Shown: positions 49,209 to 61,111, numbered from the stretch's first letter. The stretch: DNA of 64,000 bases from Bacteroidales bacterium (GCA_029227175.1 JAQXZK010000137.1:7467-71466); one strand, 5' to 3'. The notes: generated by a model not told the origin, from the sequence alone. Translations and numbers: made by a program.

Positions 49209-50084
49209 TTACCTCCTTGCTGCCATATACATTCCACTTACGATGAATATTACTCCCGCAAAAGCCATCCAGGTGAAAGGTTCGTTCAGAAAAAGGAACG
49301 AGCCAAGCAAAGTAAAGAAAGGATTCAAATAGATGTAGTTTGTGGCCTTTACCGTACCTAATTTTCTCAGTGAATGGTTCCAAAGAGCATAACAAATCAA
49401 AGAGGCTAAGACCGAAAGGAATAACAAATTACCGATGACAAGAGGATTTCTGAACAAACTCAAAGGACACTGCCACGGAACAAAAAAATAGACAGGAAGA
49501 ATCGTAACAAGTCCATAGAAAAACACCTTTCGCGTAATGAAATTGATGTCGTATCTCTTAAACAAATCCTTAAGAAAATATCCGTAAAAGGCCCACACCA
49601 CAGAAGCAACGAGTGCGAGAATGTCTCCCTTGGGGGATAACTTCAATATAAACGAACCATTATATACCACCAACCCCACTCCCACAAGAGATATTAACGA
49701 ACCCACAAGGAGGTTTCGCGTGAGATGTTCATTCCTATCCAAAAGAATCAGCAACAAAGCTGTCACCAGCGGAGTTGTACAAACAATGAATGAAACATTC
49801 GTTGCCAACGTATAAGACAATGAATAATTCTCGGAAAGGAAATAAAGTGAACCACCCGTCACACCACCAAGTAACATCTTAAACTCGTCTGCCCCGGAAC
49901 GGCAAAAAAGTGGACGTGGTGCAATGAACCACATTCCTACGTATGCAATAGCAAAACGTAATGTGAATATCTCTGTCGGTGTCAAACCATTGTTTATAAG
50001 TGTTTTTGTAGAGATGAACGTAATACCCCAAACTGCCGAAACACAGATGGCAACTATATGATACAGATAGTTTTTCTCTTTCAT
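49209..50084 (-). CDS. DMT/EamA-family transporter
   Basis: Ten TM segments in two EamA repeats; WGITF; YIYLNPFF. Confidence 0.9.
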   Translation of the reverse strand: MKEKNYLYHIVAICVSAVWGITFISTKTLINNGLTPTEIFTLRFAIAYVGMWFIAPRPLFCRSGADEFKMLLGGVTGGSLYFLSENYSLSYTLATNVSFIVCTTPLVTALLLILLDRNEHLTRNLLVGSLISLVGVGLVVYNGSFILKLSPKGDILALVASVVWAFYGYFLKDLFKRYDINFITRKVFFYGLVTILPVYFFVPWQCPLSLFRNPLVIGNLLFLSVLASLICYALWNHSLRKLGTVKATNYIYLNPFFTLLGSFLFLNEPFTWMAFAGVIFIVSGMYMAARR

Positions 50085-50298
50085 TTCTCGTTAATATTTC
50101 TTTTTCGAGCTCACAAATATATTTACAATTGTTCATAAACCTCTATCTTTAGGTACATTTAGTAACCTAAATCTATGAGTTTCTGAAAATAAAGGCTTAA
50201 ATTTGCACCGCTAAAATTCGGAACTATAAACATAGTTATAAACCGAATATTCATACTTTTCAACAATAAAAATAAAAACATACAATACATAAAGTCTT

Positions 50299-53145
50299 AT
50301 GGAATACAATTTTAGAGACATAGAGAAAAAATGGCAAAAAAGATGGGTTGACAACAAAACATACAGAGTGAAAGAAGACCCTTCAAAGAAGAAATATTAT
50401 GTGTTGAACATGTTTCCCTACCCCAGTGGAGCTGGATTGCATGTAGGACACCCACTCGGTTATATTGCCAGTGACATCTATGCCCGCTACAAGCGTCTTC
50501 AAGGCTTTAATGTATTGAACCCGATGGGTTATGACGCGTATGGACTTCCAGCTGAACAATATGCCATTCAGACAGGACAACATCCGGCAATCACTACAGA
50601 ACAGAACATAAACCGCTATCGCCAACAACTTGACAAGATAGGTTTCTGCTTTGACTGGGAAAGAGAAGTAAGAACTTGTGAGCCTATTTATTACAAATGG
50701 ACACAATGGGCATTCCAACTGATGTTCAACTCATTCTACTGCTATGACTGTCAGAAGGCACAACCCATTGAGAAACTCGTAGAACACATAGAAAAACAAG
50801 GTACATCAGACCTCAATGTAGCACAAAGCGAGCAACTTAACATCACTGCTGATGAATGGAAAGCCATGAACGAAGTAGAACAGCAGAAAGTACTTATGAA
50901 CTACCGCATTGCCTACCTTGGAGAAACAATGGTAAACTGGTGTGCAGGTTTGGGTACTGTACTTGCCAATGACGAAGTGGTGGATGGTGTTTCTGTACGT
51001 GGCGGTTTTCCCGTTACACAGAAGAAGATGCGCCAATGGTGTCTGAGGGTAAATGCTTATGCACAAAGACTTCTTGACGGACTGGATACAGTAGAATGGA
51101 CCGAGTCATTGAAAGAAACGCAACGCAACTGGATTGGTCGTTCAGAAGGTACTGAAGTAGAATTCTCAGTCAAAGACAGTGATATCAAATTCACTATTTT
51201 CACTACTCGTGCCGACACAATGTTTGGTGTCACATTCATGGTTTTGGCTCCTGAAAGCGAATATGTGTCTCAAGTAACGACTTCTGAACAAAAACAAGCC
51301 GTTGAAGATTATATAACCTATGTCAAGAAAAGAACTGAACGCGACAGAATTTCTGACAGAAAAGTTACCGGTGTATTCACTGGAAGTTATGCGATCAATC
51401 CGTTCACTGGAGAGTCAATTCCTATTTGGGTAAGCGAATATGTACTTGCTGGATATGGTACAGGTGCTATCATGGCTGTACCGGCTCACGATAGTCGTGA
51501 CTACGCATTTGCCAAACACTTCAACCTTCCTATTGTTCCACTGATTGAAGGTGCTGACGTAAGCGAAGAAAGTTATGATGCAAAAGAAGGAATTGTAACA
51601 AACAGTCCGCGAGAGGGAGTTACTCCTTACATCAATTTCAGTTTGAACGGATTGACTATCAAAGAAGCAATTGCTGCCACCAAAAAATATGTCAAGGAAC
51701 ATAACCTGGGACGTGTAAAGGTGAATTATCGAATCAGAGATGCCATCTTTTCACGCCAGCGTTATTGGGGAGAACCATTCCCGGTATATTACAAAAATAA
51801 CATGCCATACATGATTCCTTCTAACAAACTTCCGTTGGAATTACCCGAAATATCCGCATACAAGCCAACAGAAGACGGACAACCACCGTTAGGTCGTGCA
51901 GAAATGTGGGCATGGGATGAAGTCAATCAGGTTGTTGTCAATAAATCACTCATTGACAACAAAACCATATTCCCCATCGAACTGAACACTATGCCTGGAT
52001 TTGCAGGTAGTTCGGCCTACTATCTGCGATACATGGACAATAAGAACGAAGAAGCACTCGTAGCAAAAGACATTGACGAATACTGGCAAAATGTTGACCT
52101 TTACGTAGGTGGTACAGAACACGCTACAGGACACCTGATTTACTCCAGATTCTGGAACAAATTCCTCCATGATTATGGATACAGCTGCAAGGAAGAACCC
52201 TTCCAAAAGTTGGTTAACCAGGGAATGATTCAAGGCCGTTCTAATTTTGTATATAGAATCAATGATGAAGACCATTCTAAAGCACCTGTTTTTGTAAGTC
52301 TTGGACTGAAAGATAAATATGATGTTACCCCTATTCACGTGGACGTAAATATTGTAAATAATGACGTGCTTGATGTTGAAGCATTCAAGGCATGGCGTCC
52401 TGAATATAATAATGCAGAATTTATCTTAGAAGATGGAAAATATATCTGCGGTTGGGCAGTCGAGAAGATGTCAAAATCCATGTTTAATGTAGTGAACCCG
52501 GATATGATTGTAGAAAAATATGGAGCAGACACACTTCGTCTCTATGAAATGTTCCTTGGTCCAGTAGAGCAAAGTAAACCTTGGGATACAAACGGTATTG
52601 ACGGCTGCCACAGATTCTTGAAGAAATTATGGGCACTTTTCTATAATCGAGATGGACAGTTCCTTCCTAACGATGATACTCCTACCCCGGAACAACTGAA
52701 GAGCATTAACAAACTTATTAAAAAAGTTACTCAGGACATCGAACTCTTCTCTTATAACACCAGTATCTCTGCATTTATGATTGCCGTGAGCGAATTACAA
52801 AAATGTACAAGCAAAGATATCTTAAGAAAACTTGTTGTATTACTCGCTCCATTCGCGCCTCATATTGCTGAAGAACTTTGGGAATCCCTTGGTCAACAAG
52901 ATAGTGTTTGCAATGCACAGTGGCCGGTTTGTGAAGAAAAATATCTCATTGAAAGCACCATTAACTATACTATTTCATTTAATGGCAAAGCAAGATTTAA
53001 CATGGAGTTTTCTGTGGATGAAAATCAAGATGTCATACGCGAGAAAGTATTAGCCGATGAACGATCCACCAAATGGATTGAAGGAAAAAAAATACTGAAG
53101 GTTATCATTGTTCCTAAGAAAATAGTGAATATCGTTGTAAAATAA
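50299..53145 (+). CDS. leuS: Leucine--tRNA ligase
   Basis: [14 protein letters not shown]; FTTRADT; YVGGTEHA; KMSKS. Confidence 0.98.
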
Positions 53146-53153
53146 TTCAGGCA

Positions 53154-54050
53154 ATGCTCTTCGCAAATAAGGTAATTTTAGATGAAATAAAAGATTATTT
53201 CATCATAACTATCGGTTTGATAAGCTATGCAATTGCATGGCCATTATTCTTAATGCCTTACCAAATTTCCATTGGAGGAACTACCGGTATTGCATCCATC
53301 ATCTACTATGCAACAGGATTTCCCATTCAAAACACATACTTAATTATAAATGTTTTCCTACTGCTTTTCGCTTTTAAACTTATAGGATTCAAGTTCAGTA
53401 TAAAAACCACCTATGCCGTATTTATGCTCACATTTTTATTGTGGCTTTTTCAAGAACTTTTTAAGAATGAAGATGGAAAATTCTCCCAACTGATGGGTCC
53501 AGGACAAGAACTATTGGCCTGTATATTAGGTGGAACCATGTGTGGATTTGGTTTAGGTATTACCTTTACGCACAATGGAAGCACAGGAGGAACTGATATA
53601 ATTGCTGCCATAGTCAACAAATATTATGATGTTACGCTTGGTAGAATAATAATGTTAAGCGATATTGTAATTATATCTTCCTGTTATTTTATTTTCAACG
53701 ACTGGAAACGAGTTATTTTTGGTATGGTCACTCTCTTCTTTATAAGCATTGTGATTGACTATGTAGTAAACTCAAGTCGACAGTCTGTTCAATTCATCAT
53801 ATTTTCAAAAAAATATGATATGATAGCCGATAGAATCACAGTTGAAACACATCGCGGAGTTACAGTACTCGATGGAGAAGGTTGGTACAGCCATGGAGAC
53901 GTGAAAGTACTTATTGTCTTGGCTTACAAACGTCAATCACAACATATATTCAAAATCGTAAAATCAATTGACCCTAATGCATTCATTTCCCAAAGTTCGG
54001 TAATTGGTGTATATGGTGAAGGATTTGATAAAATCAAGGCTAAAGTATGA
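53154..54050 (+). CDS. YitT-family membrane protein
   Basis: [10 protein letters not shown]; [14 protein letters not shown]; DPNAFIS. Confidence 0.9.
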
Positions 54051-54628
54051 AGAAACTTGTTTTTGCTACCAATAACAAGCACAAAATAGAAGAAGTATCT
54101 GCCATGCTTTCCGGAAAATTTGAATTGCTGAGCATGAAGGATATACATTGTGACATTGATATTGCTGAAACAGCAGATACTTTTGAAGGAAATGCCTTGA
54201 TTAAGGCAAAATATATTTATGAAAATTTTAATTGTGACTGTTTTGCTGATGATTCAGGACTGGAAGTTGAAGCATTGGATGGAAAACCAGGAATATATTC
54301 TGCACGATATGCCGGAAATCATGATTCTGACGCAAACATGAACAAACTTCTTGCAGAATTAAAAGAAAAGACAAACAGAAATGCACAATTCAGAACAGTC
54401 ATTGCACTTATTTTAGATGGAGAAACTCATATATTTGAAGGAATAATCAAAGGAACCATAGCCCAGAAAAAACTCGGATCAGGAGGTTTTGGTTACGACC
54501 CTATTTTTATTCCTGAAGGATATCAACAGTCATTTGCTCAATTAGGTATTGATGTTAAAAATAACATCAGTCATAGAGCAAGAGCTATGGAAAAACTATT
54601 CAAATTTCTACATTCCAAATTTTCCTAA
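54047..54628 (+). CDS. rdgB: Non-canonical purine NTP pyrophosphatase (Ham1)
   Basis: FATNNKHK; ADDSGLEV; SARYAG; FGYDPIF; SHRARA. Confidence 0.96.
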
Positions 54629-56670
54629 TGAAAGGTATCTATAAATACATCATTTATCTATTCATTACTTTATTTATTTCTACTGCTGAATCACTAACCT
54701 GTTCAGCTGACAACACATCCACGTACAATAATTGGAAAATTCATCAATCCTATCACTTTCCAACTCGTACAGAAAAATCCGGTAATAAAATATATGTACT
54801 TGCTAATGGAGGTCTTTTTTCATACGATAAAAGTGATGATAACATTACCATTTACTCAAAAAAATCACCGCTAAATGATGCTATTATAAGCTTCATTTCT
54901 TATTCACCAGCTCACAAACTTCTTATCGTAGTTTATGATAACAGCAATATTGATTTGCTAGCTGACGAATATAAAGTATACAACATACCAGACTTTAAAA
55001 ATAAAGTAAATACATCTGATAAACATATTAATCAGTGCTTTATTTTCAATAACAAAGCGTTTCTCACTACAGGAAACGGAATATTATCGTTGGATCTACA
55101 AAACAGAATAATAGATAATTTCTATGCTTTAGGGAAAAATATTTTAGCCTGCTGTGTAGAAAATAACTGTCTGTATGCGTGTAGCGAAAAGGAAATTATT
55201 TTCTGTCCGCTCAAAGAAAACATGCTTGACCCTAATAATTGGAAAACGGACAATGAAAAGACTGTTAAAAACTTCTTGTCTCATTATGGAGATAAACCAA
55301 TGAAAGAAAACATAAGTGAATATTATCTTCCTAATAGTCCAGTAAGAAACTATGCGTTTAACTTAAGTATAAAAAATAATCATTTACTCGTAGCCGGAGG
55401 TGCATACATTGAAGACAGATTTCTGCGTGAAGGAACAATCATGTTGTTCAAAGATGAAAAGTGGATAAATTTTCAAGAAGAAGGAATAAGCCAAATCACA
55501 GGAACCTGGTATAAAGACATAATCTGTGTAGTAGAAAACCCTAACGATAATAATATTCATTTTGCTGCCTCCTGTGGAGAAGGATTATATGAATTTAGGG
55601 AAGGAAAATTTATAAAGCAGTATTCTCTGCATAATTCTCCATTACAATCAGCATTACCCAATGATTCAGATGCACGAAATTATGTGCGTGTAGGAAGTCT
55701 CATCTATGATAAAGAAGGTAATTTATGGATGACCAACTGTGAAACAAACGCACCTATTCACGTATTGCAAAAAGATGGAAAATGGAAAAGTTTTTATTAT
55801 AAGTCACTTAAACAAGCCTCAAATCTCGGTCGGTTGCTTATTGATAAACGAGGATGGATTTGGGGAACTTCATTACTCGAATCATCCTATGGTTTATTCT
55901 GTTTAAATTATAATCAAACCATCCAAGACGAATTTGATGACAAATTTGTCTATCACACCAAATTCAACGAACCATCGGGACAAACGCTTGACAGTAGAGC
56001 TCTCTTTTGTCTGACAGAAGATAAAGAAGGATACATTTGGATGGGTACTAGTAAAGGTATACTACTTATAGAAAATCCTGAAAATGTTTTTCTAAACAAC
56101 TTTTCTATCAGGCAATTTAAAATTTTCCAAAATGAAAAATTTTTAGAAAATGAATCTGTCACCTGTATTTGTATAGATGAAGAAAACCAAAAATGGATAG
56201 GAACAGACAATAATGGACTTTTTTTACTTTCTTCAGACAACAAACAAGTAATCTCACATTTCACTATAGAAAACTCACTTCTGTTGAGCAACAGCATACA
56301 ATCACTTGCATATAACGAAAACACCGGCGAATTATGGATAGGCACCAACAAAGGAATTGTATCTTACATGACAGGAATTGTTAGCGGATCAAAAGAAATA
56401 AATGATGAAAACATACTTATATATCCTAATCCTGTTAAACCCTCTTATGAAGGAAATTTAACCATTAGCCAACTTGAAGGCCAGTCACGGGTAAAAATTA
56501 TAAACGTAGCAGGTAAAGTGATGTGCGAAGGTTCCTCATTGAGTGGAACCTTCACCTGGAATCTCCGAGATTATAACAATAAAAAAGTACCCTCAGGAAT
56601 TTATATTATATTCATTACAGACGAGAACGGAAAACGAAAAGCAAGCGGAAAAGTTACTGTGATTCGTTGA
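54628..56670 (+). CDS. porZ: PorZ-like beta-propeller protein with T9SS C-terminal domain
   Basis: Signal peptide; propeller repeats (DKEGNLW, IWMGTSKG, KWIGTDNNG, LWIGTNKG); IYPNPV..SGIYI CTD; adjacent to Ham1 gene. Confidence 0.72.
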   Translation: MKGIYKYIIYLFITLFISTAESLTCSADNTSTYNNWKIHQSYHFPTRTEKSGNKIYVLANGGLFSYDKSDDNITIYSKKSPLNDAIISFISYSPAHKLLIVVYDNSNIDLLADEYKVYNIPDFKNKVNTSDKHINQCFIFNNKAFLTTGNGILSLDLQNRIIDNFYALGKNILACCVENNCLYACSEKEIIFCPLKENMLDPNNWKTDNEKTVKNFLSHYGDKPMKENISEYYLPNSPVRNYAFNLSIKNNHLLVAGGAYIEDRFLREGTIMLFKDEKWINFQEEGISQITGTWYKDIICVVENPNDNNIHFAASCGEGLYEFREGKFIKQYSLHNSPLQSALPNDSDARNYVRVGSLIYDKEGNLWMTNCETNAPIHVLQKDGKWKSFYYKSLKQASNLGRLLIDKRGWIWGTSLLESSYGLFCLNYNQTIQDEFDDKFVYHTKFNEPSGQTLDSRALFCLTEDKEGYIWMGTSKGILLIENPENVFLNNFSIRQFKIFQNEKFLENESVTCICIDEENQKWIGTDNNGLFLLSSDNKQVISHFTIENSLLLSNSIQSLAYNENTGELWIGTNKGIVSYMTGIVSGSKEINDENILIYPNPVKPSYEGNLTISQLEGQSRVKIINVAGKVMCEGSSLSGTFTWNLRDYNNKKVPSGIYIIFITDENGKRKASGKVTVIR

Positions 56671-56698
56671 TAATCATTTTCACTTTTCCTACTCATTT

Positions 56699-57625
56699 TT
56701 ACTTGCTTAACTCAAGCATTCTTAATATAGGCTTAATAGCACGTTTAGCTATTTCAGAATCTACATGTACCTCCGGAGTCTCGTTTAACAAACAATTATA
56801 AAGTTTTTCAAGAGTGTTCATACGCATAAAGTTACACTCATTGCAAGCACAAGTACTGTCGCTTGGAGGAGCAGCTATGAAAGTCTTATTAGGACATTTC
56901 TTTTGCATCTCATGCAAAATACCGCTTTCGGTTGCCACAATAAAGGTATTACAGTTGCTATTTATGGCAAATTTCAATAAAGCAGCAGTAGAGCCTACAT
57001 AATCTGCCAATTTCAGCAGTGCACCCTTACACTCAGGATGAGCGAGAATTAAAGCATTCGGATATTGTTTTTTTAGTTCTATTATTTTTTCTACAGAGAA
57101 TCTTTCATGTACATGACATGCTCCTTCCCAAAGCAACATGTTTTTACCCGTTACACTATTTATGTAAGCACCCAGATTTCTGTCAGGTCCAAAAATAATT
57201 TTTTCATCCTGCGGAAAACTTTCTACTATCTTTCTGGCATTAGTCGAGGTAACCACAACATCTGTTACAGCCTTAACGGCTGCCGATGTATTCACGTAAG
57301 AAATCACCGTGTGTCCAGGATGTTCCTTAATAAACTTACTGAAACTATCAGCTGGACAACTGTCGGCTAAAGAACAGCCTGCCTCAATGTCTGGAATCAA
57401 TACTTTCTTGTCAGGACAGAGAATTTTAGCAGTCTCACCCATAAAGTTCACACCGCACATTACAATAACATCTGCTGTAGTCTCTGCCGCCCATTGGGCT
57501 AACGCCAGACTATCACCTATAAAGTCAGATATCTCCTGTATTTCCGGTCTTTGATAGTAATGACCCAAGATAATAGCATTTTTCTCATATTTGAGTTTCT
57601 TTATTTCTTCAACGATATTATTCAT
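56699..57625 (-). CDS. nadA: Quinolinate synthase
   Basis: ILGHYYQ; GDSLALA; AGCSLA; SYVNTSA; GACHVH; AHPEC; CACNEC. Confidence 0.97.
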   Translation of the reverse strand: MNNIVEEIKKLKYEKNAIILGHYYQRPEIQEISDFIGDSLALAQWAAETTADVIVMCGVNFMGETAKILCPDKKVLIPDIEAGCSLADSCPADSFSKFIKEHPGHTVISYVNTSAAVKAVTDVVVTSTNARKIVESFPQDEKIIFGPDRNLGAYINSVTGKNMLLWEGACHVHERFSVEKIIELKKQYPNALILAHPECKGALLKLADYVGSTAALLKFAINSNCNTFIVATESGILHEMQKKCPNKTFIAAPPSDSTCACNECNFMRMNTLEKLYNCLLNETPEVHVDSEIAKRAIKPILRMLELSK

Positions 57626-57847
57626 AATTATTTTATTTCTTTATTTTAAGAAAAAAGTGTATGTTGATTATTATAGCTTGTTCATTATGTTTGAAAAAAA
57701 ATATTGTTATTTACTTGTTTTTGTATTAGTAAAACTCAAATGTTTTTTTTGAACAATGTATGAACAATAATATTCTCTAATATAGTATTTATTATAAAAA
57801 CTTTATCTTTTATTTCTATTGGTTTTGAACAGGCTGTTTATAATCTG

Positions 57848-57855
57848 CAAAGTTA
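57848..57855 (-). promoter_or_regulatory. -7 box probably driving nadA
   Basis: CAAAGTTA = TAACTTTG on the minus strand. Confidence 0.55.
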
Positions 57856-58063
57856 AAAACTATTCGGAATTTTTTTTTCATTATGAATGCTGAAAACTTG
57901 TTTATATTAAGCTATTAAATAAACCATAACTCTTTTTATAATTTGTAGATAATTTATATACGGGTTTTTGCTGGAGATTTGCAAATTTATTTTTCCTATT
58001 TATTTTTTCTCACTTTGAACAGTTTTTCAAATCTTATTGACAGGGTTGTTTATATTTATATAT

Positions 58064-58071
58064 TATCTTTG
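58064..58071 (+). promoter_or_regulatory. -7 box for the TrmH-family gene
   Basis: TATCTTTG 26 bp before the ATG. Confidence 0.7.
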
Positions 58072-58097
58072 CAATAGGTGAAGAAAAAAATACTGTA

Positions 58098-58646
58098 ATG
58101 GATTTCAGAAAACTAAGTATAAAGGAATTGAATAGAATAAGTGTGGAAGAGTTTAAGCAATCGGAGAAACTTCCGCTTACAGTTATTCTTGACAATATTA
58201 GAAGTTTACATAATATAGGTTCTGTATTTCGTACGGCTGATGCGTTTCGTCTTGAACGTATTATTCTCTGTGGAATTACAGCTTGTCCTCCTCATGCTGA
58301 AATGCATAAGACCGCTCTTGGTGCAGAATTTACAATGGAATGGGAATATTACGCTGATACATGTGAGGCTGTGAAAAAGTTACAAGCTGAAAATTATAAG
58401 GTATTGGCTATTGAGCAGTGTGAGCATAGTGTCATGCTTAATGAAATATATATAGATACGCATGAAAAATATGCTGTCATACTGGGAAATGAGGTTAAAG
58501 GCGTACGTCAGGAGGTAATTGATATGTGTGATGGATGTATAGAAATTCCTCAATTCGGCACTAAGCATTCGTTAAATGTATCGGTAGCCGGTGGAATAGT
58601 ATTATGGGAGATAAGTAAGTCATATTTGTCCATTTTCAACAAGTAG
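58098..58646 (+). CDS. TrmH/SpoU-family RNA methyltransferase
   Basis: LDNIRSLHNIGSVFRTADAF; LGNEVKGV; IPQFGTKHSLNVSVAG. Confidence 0.93.
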   Translation: MDFRKLSIKELNRISVEEFKQSEKLPLTVILDNIRSLHNIGSVFRTADAFRLERIILCGITACPPHAEMHKTALGAEFTMEWEYYADTCEAVKKLQAENYKVLAIEQCEHSVMLNEIYIDTHEKYAVILGNEVKGVRQEVIDMCDGCIEIPQFGTKHSLNVSVAGGIVLWEISKSYLSIFNK

Positions 58647-59240
58647 AATAATACGCTCTATCATCTTGTCATCTCCTTCAGCATCATATTCTTTTTTCAG
58701 ACTTGCTCCGAACATGGCAGCAAATGTTTGATAAAAACCTGCTTTAAATGGTCCCATAAATGCTTTTACCAGTTGAAAACTGGTCTGATTACATTGTCTG
58801 TCTACAAGTTTAATAAGCAATTTACCTTGTGAAAAGGTGAGTTTCTTTAGTCTTGGTGTATATTGTTCCTTTAGTCCTTTTTCAACAGCTTTGATGTGTT
58901 TTTGTTTTTCCTTTTCAGTGGGAAGGGTCTGTAAGTATTCATAAGTTTCTATGACAATGTCTTTTATTTCCTTCGAGATAGGATAGACTCGCTTTACATC
59001 TCTCACTAATCTTGCGTATTTTACGTATTCTCTCTTATTTTTGAATTTCAGAGGTTTGAAAATGTATACGGTTGGAAGTTTTATATATGGAATAGTATCT
59101 CCTTGATAAACTGTCATAGCAGTCAGGTAGACAAGCTTTCCTTCTTCATTCTTGTACCGAGCGGAAGTAATATTTTCTTGGCCGTAAGTCAATGCGCGGA
59201 TGACAATAGCCAATATTGAGAGAATAAACTTCTTTTCCAT
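58620..59240 (-). CDS. DUF4294-family protein
   Basis: Signal peptide; LVRDVKRVYP; LTFSQGKLLIKLVDRQ; FGASLK. Confidence 0.8.
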   Translation of the reverse strand: MEKKFILSILAIVIRALTYGQENITSARYKNEEGKLVYLTAMTVYQGDTIPYIKLPTVYIFKPLKFKNKREYVKYARLVRDVKRVYPISKEIKDIVIETYEYLQTLPTEKEKQKHIKAVEKGLKEQYTPRLKKLTFSQGKLLIKLVDRQCNQTSFQLVKAFMGPFKAGFYQTFAAMFGASLKKEYDAEGDDKMIERIILLVENGQI

Positions 59241-59342
59241 GTGAACAAAGATATAATATTATGTTTGATTATGTCTAAAATTAAATTCTCTATTTAAAGT
59301 TTTTAATTTATATTTGCCTCGATAAATTTGTGTTATTTACAG

Positions 59343-60116
59343 ATGACAGTTATATATCCGTCTCCTATATTTGGACCTATCCATTCACGTCGTTTGGGAG
59401 TATCTTTAGGAATAAATCTGATGCCCGGCGATGGAAAATTATGTTCTTTCGATTGTATATATTGCGAATGTGGGTTTAATGCTGATTTTCGACCTACTTC
59501 CACACGTCCTTCTCGTCAAGAAGTATACACTGCCCTTGAGGCTAAGTTGATTGAAATGAAGCACGAAGGAATCGGACCGGATGTGCTTACTTTTGCCGGA
59601 AATGGAGAGCCTACGTTACATCCTCATTTTCCCGAAATAATATATGATACACTTTATCTGCGAGATAAGTATTTTCCATTGGCAAAAGTAAGTGTATTAA
59701 GCAATTCTACGAATATTTTTAGTGATTCTGTTTTTCAAGCGCTCAAGCAGGTTGATAATAATATTCTAAAACTCGATACTGTAAATATAGACTACATACA
59801 TCGTTTAAATAGACCAACAGGTCATTATGATTTGGAAAAATTAGTTGATCGCATGATAGCGTTTGGTGGTCAATGTATGATACAGACTATTTTTCTTAAG
59901 GGAATATCAGGTGGATTTGATATGAATAACACAACCGATGAATATGTATTGCCTTGGTTGGAGTCTCTTAAACGTATTAATCCTCGGCAGGTAATGATAT
60001 ATACTATTGATCGTGAAACTCCTGATAAGTCCTTGCTAAAATCTACGCCAGAAGAACTGGATGCTATAGCAGAAAAGGTTAAACATGCAGGACTTTCTGT
60101 TAGTGTATCATATTGA
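59343..60116 (+). CDS. Radical SAM protein
   Basis: FGPIHSRRLGVSLG; CSFDCIYC; FAGNGEPTLHP. Confidence 0.9.
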   Translation: MTVIYPSPIFGPIHSRRLGVSLGINLMPGDGKLCSFDCIYCECGFNADFRPTSTRPSRQEVYTALEAKLIEMKHEGIGPDVLTFAGNGEPTLHPHFPEIIYDTLYLRDKYFPLAKVSVLSNSTNIFSDSVFQALKQVDNNILKLDTVNIDYIHRLNRPTGHYDLEKLVDRMIAFGGQCMIQTIFLKGISGGFDMNNTTDEYVLPWLESLKRINPRQVMIYTIDRETPDKSLLKSTPEELDAIAEKVKHAGLSVSVSY

Positions 60117-60210: not shown

Positions 60211-60281
60211 TGGACTATGGTGTAATGGTAGCACAACAGGTTTTGGTTCTGTTTGTCCAAGTTCGAATCTTGGTAGTCCAA
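60211..60281 (+). tRNA. tRNA-Gln(UUG)
   Basis: Acceptor TGGACTA/TAGTCCA; anticodon stem ACAGG/TCTGT with loop TTTTGGT; T-arm CCAAG-TTCGAAT-CTTGG. Confidence 0.97.
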
Positions 60282-60286
60282 CTTAG

Positions 60287-60326
60287 AAAATCCTTATAAA
60301 CAAGAATGTTTATAGGGATTTTTTTT
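60287..60326 (+). terminator. Intrinsic terminator after tRNA-Gln
   Basis: AAAATCCTTATAAACA-AGAA-TGTTTATAGGGATTTTTTTT. Confidence 0.85.
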
Positions 60327-60329
60327 ATA

Positions 60330-60556
60330 ACTCATTATCTCCGAATGGTGATTGGCGCGAAGCCATGCGACTGCCATCTTCTGCTGGGTGGCGAAATCCT
60401 GCATCTGTGCTACCTGTAGCTTGGTGGAGGAACTTGCAGGTACTTCTCCAGGTGGATGAGGTTTGAACTGGAGTTGATGGTGAAGTATTCGTTGCTTCTG
60501 CTGCCACACTTTCCTGAGATGCCCTTGATGACATCGATTGGCGTAATACGTGCCAT
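60330..60556 (-). pseudogene. Frameshifted, truncated small hypothetical gene
   Basis: MARITPIDVIKGISGK..IHLEKY, then KFLHQATG and QDFATQQKMAVAWLRANH in other frames; own -7 box at 60764-60771. Confidence 0.55.
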
Positions 60557-60677
60557 GGTTGTTTTTCCTCAAAGCCATAGCAGAGGTAGAGTCTGCCGAC
60601 CATTTGTATGCCGTTGAGGACGGTGTTAGGTTTGACAATCGGATTCGACGGGCGACCATTTCCGAGCCTTGCCGGGC

Positions 60678-60730
60678 CCTCAAAGGCTCCTCAAAGGCTC
60701 CTCAATGAGTCCTCATCGCTCCTCATCGCG
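60678..60730. repeat. 11/10-bp tandem repeat, 5 units
   Basis: CCTCAAAGGCT x2, CCTCAATGAGT, CCTCATCGCT, CCTCATCGCG. Confidence 0.85.
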
Positions 60731-61111
60731 GAGGCTGATGAAATCCCATCTGAATCACACCTGCAAAGATACTGCTCTTTCCGAGCGTATGGGCAGGTTG
60801 TCCCGAGGGTAGTAGTGACTTTGTCCTGTAAGTTGTGAGGGACGAGTGTCAAACGTCAAATGTCAACTCGATAGAACCCCACTTTTTCAACTCGTCCTCC
60901 TAACTGCCCACCCCTCTAAGCCTTTACTCCTTGACTGTCCCTACTTTATCAATCATTTTTTCCTTTAAGTGAGCAGTTATAAAAGTAAGTTTTCTCATCA
61001 GAATATTTCCATTATATTTCTACTGATGAGTAAATAAAATTTTACTATATTTGCTTGAGGTCTGCTATATTTTCCTTTATTCCACTCTAAGTGAGTAGGC
61101 AAGAAGGCTAT

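What the first reader, a model, noticed from the sequence alone, without database searches (positions are those of the whole stretch)
57626..58097. Candidate oriC, unlinked to dnaA, with non-canonical DnaA-box-like motif
Nine related 9-mers cluster in an extremely AT-rich interval: TGTTGATTA 57662, TGTTCATTA 57679, TTTTGAACA 57747, GTATGAACA 57758, TTTTGAACA 57823, TGTTTATAA 57835, TGTTTATAT 57899, TTATTGACA 58034, TGTTTATAT 58047. The consensus is roughly WWATRAACA versus canonical TTATNCACA, with two inverted pairs 3-4 bp apart. Strand composition appears to flip here. Plus-strand spot counts: argS line 48361 C22/G8 and nadA 57121 C18/G6, versus TrmH-family 58441 C5/G13 and dacB 63121 C6/G18; these are confounded by gene direction. 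A C-to-G switch is the origin polarity. I also recall the B. fragilis genome being numbered from a SpoU methylase gene, which fits. Caveat: most genes to the left would then be head-on to the fork.
Basis: partly seen in the sequence, partly recalled or inferred. Interest (0 to 1): 0.7.

Follow-up and report, generated by a model that had tools for sequence, protein, structure and literature searches.

The report
Bacteroides chromosome replication origin beside nadA

Summary
All nine 9-mers sit at the stated coordinates in a 472-bp spacer of 20.8% GC between divergent nadA and a SpoU/TrmH methylase gene.

The strand-composition switch is real and is not caused by gene direction. Third-codon-position GC skew (GC3 skew), corrected for gene orientation, changes sign exactly at this spacer (posterior 0.998).

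The same nadA-spacer-TrmH arrangement is conserved in 21 of 24 same-genus genomes for which a TrmH locus was fetched. In a complete 6.03-Mb relative it lies where the chromosome-wide skew turns from negative to positive, 1.2 Mb from dnaA.

Across 36 orthologous spacers the recurring box is TTATCAACA, one base from E. coli TTATCCACA. It occurs about 100 times more often there than in background sequence. Some species carry perfect TTATCCACA at the same aligned positions.

Next to nadA there is a conserved module: two abutting boxes, a GC-rich triplet, a 3-nt-periodic tract and an AT-rich tract. This is the layout of the basal unwinding system (BUS) described for bacterial origins.

A second origin-polarity switch on contig C12 falls in a dispersed repeat at a synteny break and is probably an assembly join.

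Verdict: oriC, a new member of a known kind. Confidence 0.88, interest about 0.3.

The parts
57626..57659 (.). AT-rich tract next to the nadA start codon; candidate DNA unwinding element (DUE)
   Evidence: Sequence AATTATTTTATTTCTTTATTTTAAGAAAAAAGTG. The homologous tract is the least stable 30-mer in 28 of 36 orthologous spacers. The DUE role is inferred, not shown.
57660..57678 (-). 3-nt-periodic tract (plus strand TATGTTGATTATTATA) and GC-rich triplet (GCT); DnaA-trio-like element
   Evidence: It aligns with the conserved TGATGGTGATGATAG-GCC block of relatives. Minus strand: AGC-T-ATA-ATA-ATC-AAC-ATA. The complementary strand therefore reads 3'-TAT TAT TAG-5', with a central A as in the relaxed 3'-NAN-5' trio rule of PMC8287927. 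It does not match the stringent 3'-GAT-5' form.
57679..57696 (-). Two abutting DnaA boxes next to the trio-like tract: TAATGAACA (57679-57687) and degenerate TTTCAAACA (57688-57696)
   Evidence: Relatives have CTATTAACA and TTATCCACA/TTATCAACA at these two aligned positions, for example L020/L023 with perfect TGTGGATAA.
57662..57670 (-).
   Evidence: It lies inside the trio-like tract, so it may not be an independent box.
57747..57766 (+). Direct pair of boxes TTTTGAACA (57747) and GTATGAACA (57758)
   Evidence: The 57758 site aligns with GTTATCAAC / GTTATGAAC / GTTATCCAC in relatives.
57823..57843 (.). Inverted box pair TTTTGAACA (57823, plus) and TTATAAACA (57835-57843, minus), 3-bp gap
   Evidence: Conserved in relatives as TTATTAAC-NNN-CTGTTGATAA. 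Prevotellaceae members have TTATCCAC at the first box. TTATAAACA is the only box in the window's spacer that scores 9 bits or more on the family matrix.
57847..57861 (-). Highly conserved block GCAAAGTTAAAAACT (relatives: GCAAAGTTAATAACTTT, a near-palindrome). On the minus strand it reads TAACTTTGC, fitting the Bacteroides -7 promoter consensus TAnnTTTG
   Evidence: GCAAAGTTA is present in 30 of the 37 orthologous spacers counted; alignment. The promoter consensus is from my own knowledge. A role as the nadA promoter and/or a regulator site is inferred.
57899..57907 (-). Box ATATAAACA (plus strand TGTTTATAT)
   Evidence: Aligns with TGTTTAT / TGTTGAT / GTGGATA in relatives.
57944..57952 (-).
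   Evidence: The aligned region has TGTTCATAA in the genus and TGTGGATAA in L104/L131.
58013..58055 (.). Array of boxes spaced 10-11 bp apart: CTTTGAACA (58013), TTTTTCAAA (58023), TTATTGACA (58034), then inverted ATATAAACA (58047-58055)
   Evidence: Relatives have TTTTGACAG-G-TTTTCAACC-G-TTATCAACA at the same place with a 10-bp period. Coordinates.
58064..58071 (+). Likely -7 promoter element of the TrmH/SpoU gene (TATCTTTG)
   Evidence: TAnnTTTGCA is conserved in nearly all aligned spacers about 27 bp before the ATG. The consensus is from my own knowledge.
56699..57625 (-). nadA (quinolinate synthase), the conserved left neighbour
   Evidence: NCBIfam NF006878, 452 bits. GC3 skew is -0.20, the last gene with left-replichore composition.
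58098..58646 (+). SpoU/TrmH-family RNA 2'-O-methyltransferase, the conserved right neighbour
   Evidence: Pfam PF00588, E = 1.1e-36. GC3 skew is +0.47, the first gene with right-replichore composition.

Best explanation
The nadA-TrmH spacer (57626-58097) is the chromosomal replication origin (oriC) of this uncultured Bacteroides.

Proposed mechanism:
- DnaA binds about a dozen 9-mers of the lineage type TTATNAACA (genus consensus TTATCAACA). They are arranged as two inverted pairs, a direct pair and an array spaced 10-11 bp apart.
- At the nadA end, two abutting boxes, a GC-rich triplet and a 3-nt-periodic tract lead into a 34-bp AT-rich tract. This tract is the likely site of first unwinding and helicase loading, and the layout is that of a basal unwinding system (BUS).
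- Forks then move outwards, which produces the C-rich plus strand on the left and the G-rich plus strand on the right.

Shown here: the motifs, their excess over chance, their positional conservation, and the co-location of the spacer with the skew switch in this genome and two relatives.

Inferred: DnaA binding, the identity of the unwinding element, the trio-like function, and firing in vivo.
For: Composition:
- Genome-wide, replication accounts for about +/-0.085 of whole-gene GC skew and coding strand for only +0.024. There is no gene-strand bias.
- On contig C137, GC3 skew is negative for nearly all genes to the left, on either strand, and positive to the right, with nadA at -0.20 and TrmH at +0.47.
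- A change-point model with parameters from 1097 genes on other contigs puts the switch between nadA and TrmH with posterior 0.998.

Relatives:
- Divergent nadA-spacer-TrmH is found in 21 of 24 same-genus TrmH loci and in some Prevotellaceae.
- In the complete 6,031,385-bp genome G002, sampled skew is positive in 14 of 16 samples from 0 to 2.84 Mb and negative in 13 of 14 from 2.99 to 6.03 Mb.
- In G002 the best local change point is the same spacer; in G018 it lies within 5 kb. dnaA in G002 is at 1.20 Mb.

Boxes:
- An unbiased k-mer count over the orthologous spacers gives TTATCAACA as the top non-trivial repeated 9-mer.
- Exact TTATCAACA occurs at 1.69 per kb in the spacers against 0.017 per kb in background. 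TTATCCACA occurs at 0.49 against 0.015 per kb.
- Canonical and variant boxes alternate at the same alignment columns.
- In the window itself there are 12 hits against 2.9 +/- 1.7 in shuffles, and it is the densest window in the genome.
- No canonical box cluster exists anywhere else in the assembly; the maximum is 3 per 600 bp.

Architecture:
- The box-box-GCC-(ATC)n-AT-tract module is conserved.
- The least stable 30-mer is the nadA-proximal tract in 28 of 36 spacers.
- A similar predicted basal unwinding system is listed for the DoriC origin of Prevotella ruminicola 23 (supplement of PMC8287927).

Initiator: DnaA keeps R399, H434 and H439 but differs at three of the six base-contacting residues, P423S, D433N and T435A. 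This fits an altered box.

Literature: oriC far from dnaA is common in Bacteroidetes (PMC4755523).
Against:
- The assembly is a 232-contig draft, about 92% complete, so the global skew minimum cannot be computed for this genome itself.
- A second contig, C12, also shows a negative-to-positive switch.
- The window's own boxes are weak against the family matrix (1 site at 9 bits or more), and only one 9-mer is within 1 mismatch of E. coli TTATCCACA.
- In sequence of 21% GC, relaxed AT-rich motifs are easy to find.
- The box motif is not enriched upstream of dnaA in 24 relatives, so there is no independent link between this motif and DnaA.
- About 80% of neighbouring genes on both sides point towards the spacer, that is, head-on to the forks.
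- The spacer must also hold the nadA and TrmH promoters, so part of its conservation is regulatory.
Confidence: 0.88

Rival explanations
1. The origin lies close by, but the spacer is only part of it or is not the unwinding site. It could be a bipartite origin with a second box cluster a few kb away, or an origin in the transporter-leuS gap near 50.1-50.3 kb, where the raw cumulative skew bottoms out.
For: - Raw cumulative skew is lowest near window coordinate 50.5 kb and flat as far as 65 kb.
- In G002 and G018, strong boxes are also dense in the 2-3 kb beyond TrmH, including a cluster of 6 about 2 kb from the spacer.
- The G018 change point is about 5 kb off the spacer.
- Two good boxes lie at 50130 and 50257.
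Against: - leuS, the YitT-family gene, rdgB, porZ and nadA all have left-replichore GC3 skew (-0.20 to -0.39). This puts the switch to the right of nadA.
- The flat raw skew from 50 to 57 kb is what plus-strand genes on a C-rich strand would give.
- Gene content beyond TrmH differs between G000 and G002/G018, so a second cluster is not conserved in this genome.
Confidence: 0.07
2. The spacer is only a long divergent promoter and regulatory region for nadA and TrmH. The skew switch would mark a rearrangement breakpoint or an assembly join rather than the origin, and the true oriC would be elsewhere or unassembled, for example at the C12 switch.
For: - Two Bacteroides-type -7 promoter elements and a conserved near-palindrome lie in the spacer.
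- C12 shows a negative-to-positive switch of comparable strength.
- About 8% of the genome is missing.
- The boxes are degenerate in this genome.
Against: - The same spacer lies at the skew switch of a complete relative and of a second relative on a 1.1-Mb contig.
- DnaA-type boxes are 30- to 100-fold enriched in 36 orthologous spacers.
- The C12 switch sits in a repeat with at least 15 dispersed copies, many at contig ends.
- The C12 flanks, purH and PBP1A, are 1.9 Mb apart in G002 and on different contigs in all relatives checked.
- The C12 junction has no box cluster.
Confidence: 0.04
3. The conserved sequence encodes a structured RNA, for example an NAD+ riboswitch in the nadA leader, or a small protein, rather than protein-binding DNA sites.
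For: The spacer lies upstream of nadA, and a conserved minus-strand promoter about 220 nt upstream would give a long leader.
Against: - No Rfam family matches on either strand at E <= 1.
- No ORF of 60 aa or more lies in the spacer.
- The conserved blocks are short 9-mers in both orientations, separated by variable stretches with insertions and deletions.
- An RNA would not explain the skew switch.
Confidence: 0.01

Closest known systems
DoriC / Ori-Finder predicted oriCs of Bacteroidales, e.g. Prevotella intermedia OMA14 (positions 1,498,452-1,498,927; PMC4755523) and Prevotella ruminicola 23 ORI93030288 (supplement of PMC8287927)
   Same: - It is an intergenic region of about 470 bp at the GC-skew transition, far from dnaA, with several boxes within 1-2 mismatches of TTATCCACA.
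- The P. ruminicola entry lists the same layout, written 3'-5': AATAGTTCT | ATAAGTGC | CGTA | TAG TAT GAT ... The window has AAAGTTTGT | ATTACTTGT | TCG | ATA TTA TTA ..., and genus members have AATAGGTGT | GATAATTGG | CGG A | TAG TAG TAG.
   Different: - Those are predictions too; none has been tested experimentally as far as I could find.
- I could not check whether they lie next to nadA/TrmH.
- In the text and the held supplementary tables (S1, S2) of Ori-Finder 2022 I found no Bacteroidetes-specific indicator gene and no Bacteroidetes DnaA box.
- The window's boxes are more degenerate than in any relative examined.
Bacillus subtilis oriC basal unwinding system (BUS): DnaA boxes 6 and 7, GC cluster, DnaA-trios, AT-rich region (PMC6669920, PMC8287927, PMC8235120)
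   Same: Order and polarity match: two tandem boxes reading 5'-TTATCCACA-like toward the unwinding side, a 3-4 nt G/C-rich spacer, a tract of at least 3 trinucleotides with a central A on the complementary strand, then an AT-rich tract.
   Different: - The trio sequence is 3'-TAG/TAT-5' rather than 3'-GAT-5'.
- The origin is not next to dnaA.
- Box position 6 is A rather than C.
- Function is untested.
Escherichia coli oriC
   Same: A DnaA-box cluster with an AT-rich unwinding element at one end. The DUE-proximal box has the same polarity as R1. There is an array of same-orientation sites with about 10-11 bp periodicity, like R5M-tau2-I1-I2. The origin is unlinked from dnaA and flanked by divergently transcribed genes.
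   Different: There are no GATC/SeqA sites and no 13-mer repeats. The box consensus differs, and the flanking genes differ (gidA/mioC in E. coli, nadA/TrmH here).

Membership tests
DnaA-dependent bacterial oriC | Lies at the switch of leading-strand composition (minimum of cumulative GC skew) | tested here: met
   Contig-level V-shaped skew. Orientation-corrected GC3 change point at the spacer, posterior 0.998. The orthologous spacer lies at the chromosome-wide switch of the complete relative G002. The whole-genome minimum of this draft itself cannot be computed.
DnaA-dependent bacterial oriC | Cluster of at least 3 DnaA boxes within 1 mismatch of the E. coli box TTATCCACA (Ori-Finder criterion) | tested here: not met
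   In the window only TTATCTACA (57944) is within 1 mismatch of TTATCCACA; there are 3 sites within 1 mismatch of TTATNCACA. Several relatives carry perfect TTATCCACA or close variants at orthologous positions.
DnaA-dependent bacterial oriC | Cluster of boxes matching the lineage's own DnaA-box consensus | tested here: met
   The genus consensus TTATCAACA was derived from 36 orthologous spacers. The window has 12 sites within 1 mismatch of TTATNAACA against 2.9 expected, the densest window in the genome. Caveat: that DnaA binds this consensus is inferred.
DnaA-dependent bacterial oriC | AT-rich DNA unwinding element flanking the box cluster | tested here: met
   The 57626-57659 tract. The homologous tract is the least stable 30-mer in 28 of 36 spacers. 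In the window itself the whole spacer is AT-rich, and the single least stable 30-mer is at 57767-57796.
DnaA-dependent bacterial oriC | DnaA binding, DnaA-dependent unwinding, autonomous replication or a marker-frequency peak | not testable with these tools
No experimental study of a Bacteroides oriC was found in the paper searches.
DnaA-dependent bacterial oriC | Adjacent to dnaA (common but not defining) | tested here: not met
   dnaA is on contig C90 and 1.2 Mb away in G002. This is reported as usual for Bacteroidetes (PMC4755523).
Basal unwinding system (BUS) | DnaA box(es), a spacer of at most 16 bp, at least 3 consecutive 3'-NAN-5' trios, then an AT-rich region (search rule of PMC8287927) | tested here: met
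   Minus strand: TTTCAAACA-TAATGAACA-AGCT-ATA-ATA-ATC-AAC-ATA-CAC-TTTTTTCTTAAAATAAAG. The module is conserved in the genus. The rule is permissive in AT-rich DNA, so conservation is the stronger argument.
Basal unwinding system (BUS) | Trios of the stringent form 3'-GAT-5' | tested here: not met
   The repeat unit is 3'-TAG-5' or 3'-TAT-5', which reads 5'-GAT-3' on the plus strand. That is the opposite polarity to B. subtilis.

The most novel reading that the evidence does not exclude
Bacteroidales DnaA may have a shifted box specificity (TTATCAACA, with A rather than C at position 6) caused by lineage-wide substitutions at two of the six base-contacting residues: T435A in 28 of 30 genomes, and P423A/S. 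This genome would have gone a step further. Uniquely among the 30 genomes it carries D433N, and its origin boxes have drifted to WWATGAACA / WWATAAACA, so the initiator and origin would be co-evolving. On this reading the trio element 3'-TAG-5' is a phylum-specific variant of the DnaA-trio.
Probability: 0.3. Interest if true: 0.5.

Novelty: new member of a known kind. Interest (0 to 1): 0.3.

Why it matters
- It anchors the origin of an uncultured Bacteroides draft genome. That helps with ordering contigs and with growth-rate (peak-to-trough) estimates from metagenomes.
- It shows that the nadA-SpoU/TrmH spacer is a dependable origin marker for Bacteroidaceae. The Ori-Finder 2022 text and held tables I searched name no Bacteroidetes-specific indicator gene.
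- The family-wide box consensus TTATCAACA, together with substitutions at DnaA's base-contacting residues, gives a concrete hypothesis about initiator specificity that can be tested cheaply in a major gut phylum whose origin has apparently never been dissected experimentally.
- As biology it is an ordinary origin.

Tried and rejected
- Canonical TTATCCACA (up to 1 mismatch) cluster scan of the whole assembly: no cluster above 3 per 600 bp anywhere, so it does not point to any locus.
- C12 as the origin: rejected. The switch lies in a dispersed repeat at a synteny break and has no box cluster.
- DnaA boxes upstream of dnaA as independent support for the motif: no enrichment, 0.33 against 0.86 per kb.
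- NAD+ riboswitch or other RNA in the spacer: no Rfam hit.
- Origin in the transporter-leuS gap at the raw skew minimum: rejected by GC3 skew.
- A generic BUS regular expression on the spacers: too permissive to be informative. It matched 34 of 37, often at the wrong place.
- The search for related loci with a TrmH alignment returned mainly MAGs, not named complete genomes. The B. fragilis numbering claim therefore stays unverified.
- The paper with the DnaA-DNA contact map (Fujikawa 2003) is not held. The residue list was taken from PMC7561715 and PMC2533591.
- The correlation between DnaA residues and box composition could not be tested, because almost all relatives share the same residues.

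Full report
**What is there.** The window is part of contig C137 (87.7 kb) of a 232-contig, 2.88-Mb draft genome with 46.8% GC, about 92% complete. The closest named relatives of the SpoU/TrmH gene next to the finding are uncultured Bacteroides and Bacteroidaceae MAGs from animal guts.

The finding's interval, 57626-58097, is exactly the gap between two divergent genes. On the left is nadA (56699-57625, minus strand). On the right is a SpoU/TrmH-family RNA methyltransferase gene (58098-58646, plus strand). The gap is 472 bp and 20.8% GC.

All nine 9-mers are at the stated coordinates. The four C/G spot counts and the gene names are correct. dnaA lies on another contig, C90.

**Is the motif cluster more than chance?** Yes, with a caveat.
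- TTATNAACA with up to one mismatch occurs 12 times, against 2.9 +/- 1.7 in 2000 dinucleotide-preserving shuffles; none reached 12.
- Under the TTATNAACA definition this is the densest 472-bp window in the assembly, with 13 hits against 6 for the runner-up.
- The caveat: against a weight matrix trained on relatives, only one site in the window scores 9 bits or more. At relaxed thresholds the spacer is merely among the top clusters.
- No canonical-box cluster exists anywhere in the assembly.

**Is the strand switch real?** Yes. In this genome the replication-associated GC skew is about +/-0.085. The coding-strand effect on whole-gene skew is only +0.024, and there is no gene-strand bias.

On C137 most genes to the left are on the plus strand yet C-rich. 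Most genes to the right are on the minus strand yet the plus strand is G-rich. Gene direction therefore works against the observed switch and does not create it.

Third-codon-position GC skew (GC3 skew) is negative for almost every gene up to and including nadA (-0.20). It is positive from TrmH (+0.47) onwards.

A change-point model was fitted with parameters estimated from 1097 genes on other contigs (replication 0.178, orientation -0.089, residual sd 0.131). It puts the switch between nadA and TrmH with posterior 0.998. The polarity, from C-rich to G-rich on the plus strand, is that of an origin.

**The rival switch on contig C12.** C12 also goes from negative to positive skew, near 58 kb.
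- That junction, between purH and a GH29/PBP1A block, lies inside a repeat of about 0.5 kb. The repeat has at least 15 dispersed copies, many at contig ends.
- purH and PBP1A are 1.9 Mb apart in the complete relative G002. They are on different contigs in every other relative checked.
- The junction has no box cluster.
- I read it as an assembly join through a repeat, or a recent rearrangement, and not as an origin.

**Relatives.** Divergent nadA-spacer-TrmH, with a spacer of 390-620 bp, is present in 21 of 24 same-genus TrmH loci fetched. It is also present in one other family of the order and in several Bacteroidaceae and Prevotellaceae MAGs.

G002 is a complete 6,031,385-bp chromosome of the same genus.
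- Twenty-kb samples are positive in 14 of 16 cases from 0 to 2.84 Mb and negative in 13 of 14 from 2.99 to 6.03 Mb. The origin is therefore at the record junction and the terminus near 2.9 Mb.
- The nadA-TrmH spacer lies 11 kb from the record's end.
- The spacer is the best-supported local change point, with weight 0.45; all alternatives lie within 4 kb.
- dnaA is at 1.20 Mb.

In G018, on a 1.1-Mb contig, the switch is within about 5 kb of the spacer.

**What the boxes are.** An unbiased k-mer count over the orthologous spacers gives TTATCAACA (31 copies), GTTATTAAC and TTATTAACA as the leading non-trivial repeated 9-mers.

An iterated weight matrix gives T-T-A-T-C-A-A-C-A, with position 6 being A in 78% and C in 20% of sites. 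Exact TTATCAACA is about 100 times denser in the spacers than in background (1.69 against 0.017 per kb). TTATCCACA is about 30 times denser.

In the alignment the boxes occupy fixed columns. At several of these columns some species have perfect TTATCCACA/TGTGGATAA where others have TTATCAACA, TTATTAACA or TTATGAACA. That is what is expected if all are sites for one protein whose canonical site is the DnaA box.

The 9-mer at 57747 aligns with only a partial box in relatives. The 9-mer at 57662 lies inside the periodic tract described next.

**Architecture and likely mechanism.** Read on the minus strand towards nadA, the genus shows four elements in order:
- two abutting boxes, for example TTATCCACA-CTATTAACC;
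- a G/C-rich triplet, GCC or GGC;
- a tract of about 18 nt with 3-nt periodicity, T-ATC-ATC-ACC-ATC-AA;
- a T/A-rich tract that runs up to the nadA start.

The window has TTTCAAACA-TAATGAACA-AGC-T-ATA-ATA-ATC-AAC-ATA, followed by TTTTTTCTTAAAATAAAGAAATAAAATAATT.

This is the order and polarity of the basal unwinding system (BUS) defined in B. subtilis: box, box, GC cluster, DnaA-trios, AT-rich region (PMC8287927, PMC8235120). The trinucleotides have the required central A on the complementary strand. However, they read 3'-TAG/TAT-5' rather than 3'-GAT-5'.

The nadA-proximal tract is the least stable 30-mer in 28 of 36 spacers. At the TrmH end there is an array of same-orientation boxes with a 10-11 bp period (58013, 58023, 58034), followed by an inverted box (58047).

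I therefore propose the following sequence of events. DnaA fills the boxes, oligomerises from the two nadA-proximal boxes onto the periodic tract, and opens the 57626-57659 tract. All of this is inference from sequence.

The spacer also carries what look like the two gene promoters, in the Bacteroides -7 form TAnnTTTG. One is at 58064-58071. The other lies on the minus strand within the very conserved near-palindrome GCAAAGTTAAWAACTTT (57847-57861). Transcription from the minus-strand promoter would run through the boxes and the unwinding element.

**The initiator.** The six base-contacting residues of E. coli DnaA are R399, P423, D433, H434, T435 and H439 (PMC7561715, PMC2533591).
- This genome keeps R399, H434 and H439.
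- It has S at 423, N at 433 and A at 435.
- A at 435 is shared by 28 of 30 Bacteroidales DnaA proteins examined. An A or S at 423 is usual. N at 433 is unique to this genome.

This fits a shifted box preference in the order and perhaps a further shift here, but it is only a correlation. An independent link between the motif and DnaA, boxes upstream of dnaA, was looked for and not found.

**What is already known.**
- The P. intermedia OMA14 genome paper places a 476-bp oriC with multiple boxes at a skew transition far from dnaA. It states that this is common in Bacteroidetes according to DoriC (PMC4755523).
- The supplementary table of PMC8287927 lists predicted basal unwinding systems for DoriC origins of Bacteroidales. 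The boxes are of the same type: TTATCAAGA in P. ruminicola, TTTTCAACA in P. gingivalis and TTATTAACA in Odoribacter. The P. ruminicola entry has the same box-box-spacer-TAG... layout.
- In the text and held supplementary tables of Ori-Finder 2022 I found no Bacteroidetes-specific indicator gene or box.
- I found no experimental study of a Bacteroides origin.
- Earlier notes of this scan report several nadA-linked origin candidates in other Bacteroidota. They agree with my reading but are not independent evidence.

**Verdict.** This is very probably oriC (0.88), an ordinary origin of a kind already predicted for the phylum. The modest additions are the nadA-SpoU/TrmH marker for Bacteroidaceae, the consensus TTATCAACA, the conserved BUS-like module with a variant trio, and the DnaA contact-residue substitutions.

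Noticed in passing
window 60340-60840; also G000 C12:57740-58700 and at least 13 other contigs: A dispersed repeat of about 0.5 kb with at least 15 copies at 75-97% identity, many at contig ends, so it breaks the assembly. It carries a short minus-strand ORF (window 60294-60683, 129 aa, no Pfam or NCBIfam hit). In C12 it is flanked by TTGTTAATTTGTTAATTT / AACAAATTAACAAATTAAC inverted repeats. In the window it sits just downstream of a tRNA gene.
   Followed up: partly
window 60211-60281 (+): A tRNA gene (Rfam RF00005, 62.9 bits) 2 kb from the origin. The anticodon was not determined.
   Followed up: no
window 1-64000 and the rest of contig C137: Genes converge on the origin from both sides: 41 of 50 genes on the left are on the plus strand and 16 of 20 on the right are on the minus strand. 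About 80% are therefore head-on to the forks over roughly 85 kb, although the genome as a whole has no strand bias (49-50% co-directional). This is not seen in relatives G002 and G018.
   Followed up: partly
window ~50000-60000: The 10 kb around the origin has much lower GC (33-40%) than the genome (46.8%), even in housekeeping genes (rdgB, porZ, nadA at 33-38%). G002 and G018 show only a mild dip (37-40% against 43-44%).
   Followed up: partly
G002 and G018 loci L034-L053, 2-3 kb beyond TrmH: In two large-genome relatives, strong TTATCAACA-type boxes are also dense outside the spacer, including inside coding sequence. One cluster of 6 lies at the 5' end of a 682-aa gene about 2 kb away. This may be a second DnaA-binding cluster (bipartite origin or DnaA-titration site).
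   Followed up: partly
G023 DnaA (locus L164): One same-genus genome has a strongly divergent DnaA recognition helix, KHHSTVLYA instead of KDHATVLHA (D433H, A435S, H439Y). Its spacer (L007) has more CCAC-type boxes.
   Followed up: no
window 57847-57861: The near-palindrome AAAGTTA-A-TAACTTT is the single most conserved block of the spacer (GCAAAGTTA in 30 of 37 spacers). It overlaps a minus-strand -7 promoter element and could also be the operator of an NAD-regulon repressor.
   Followed up: no
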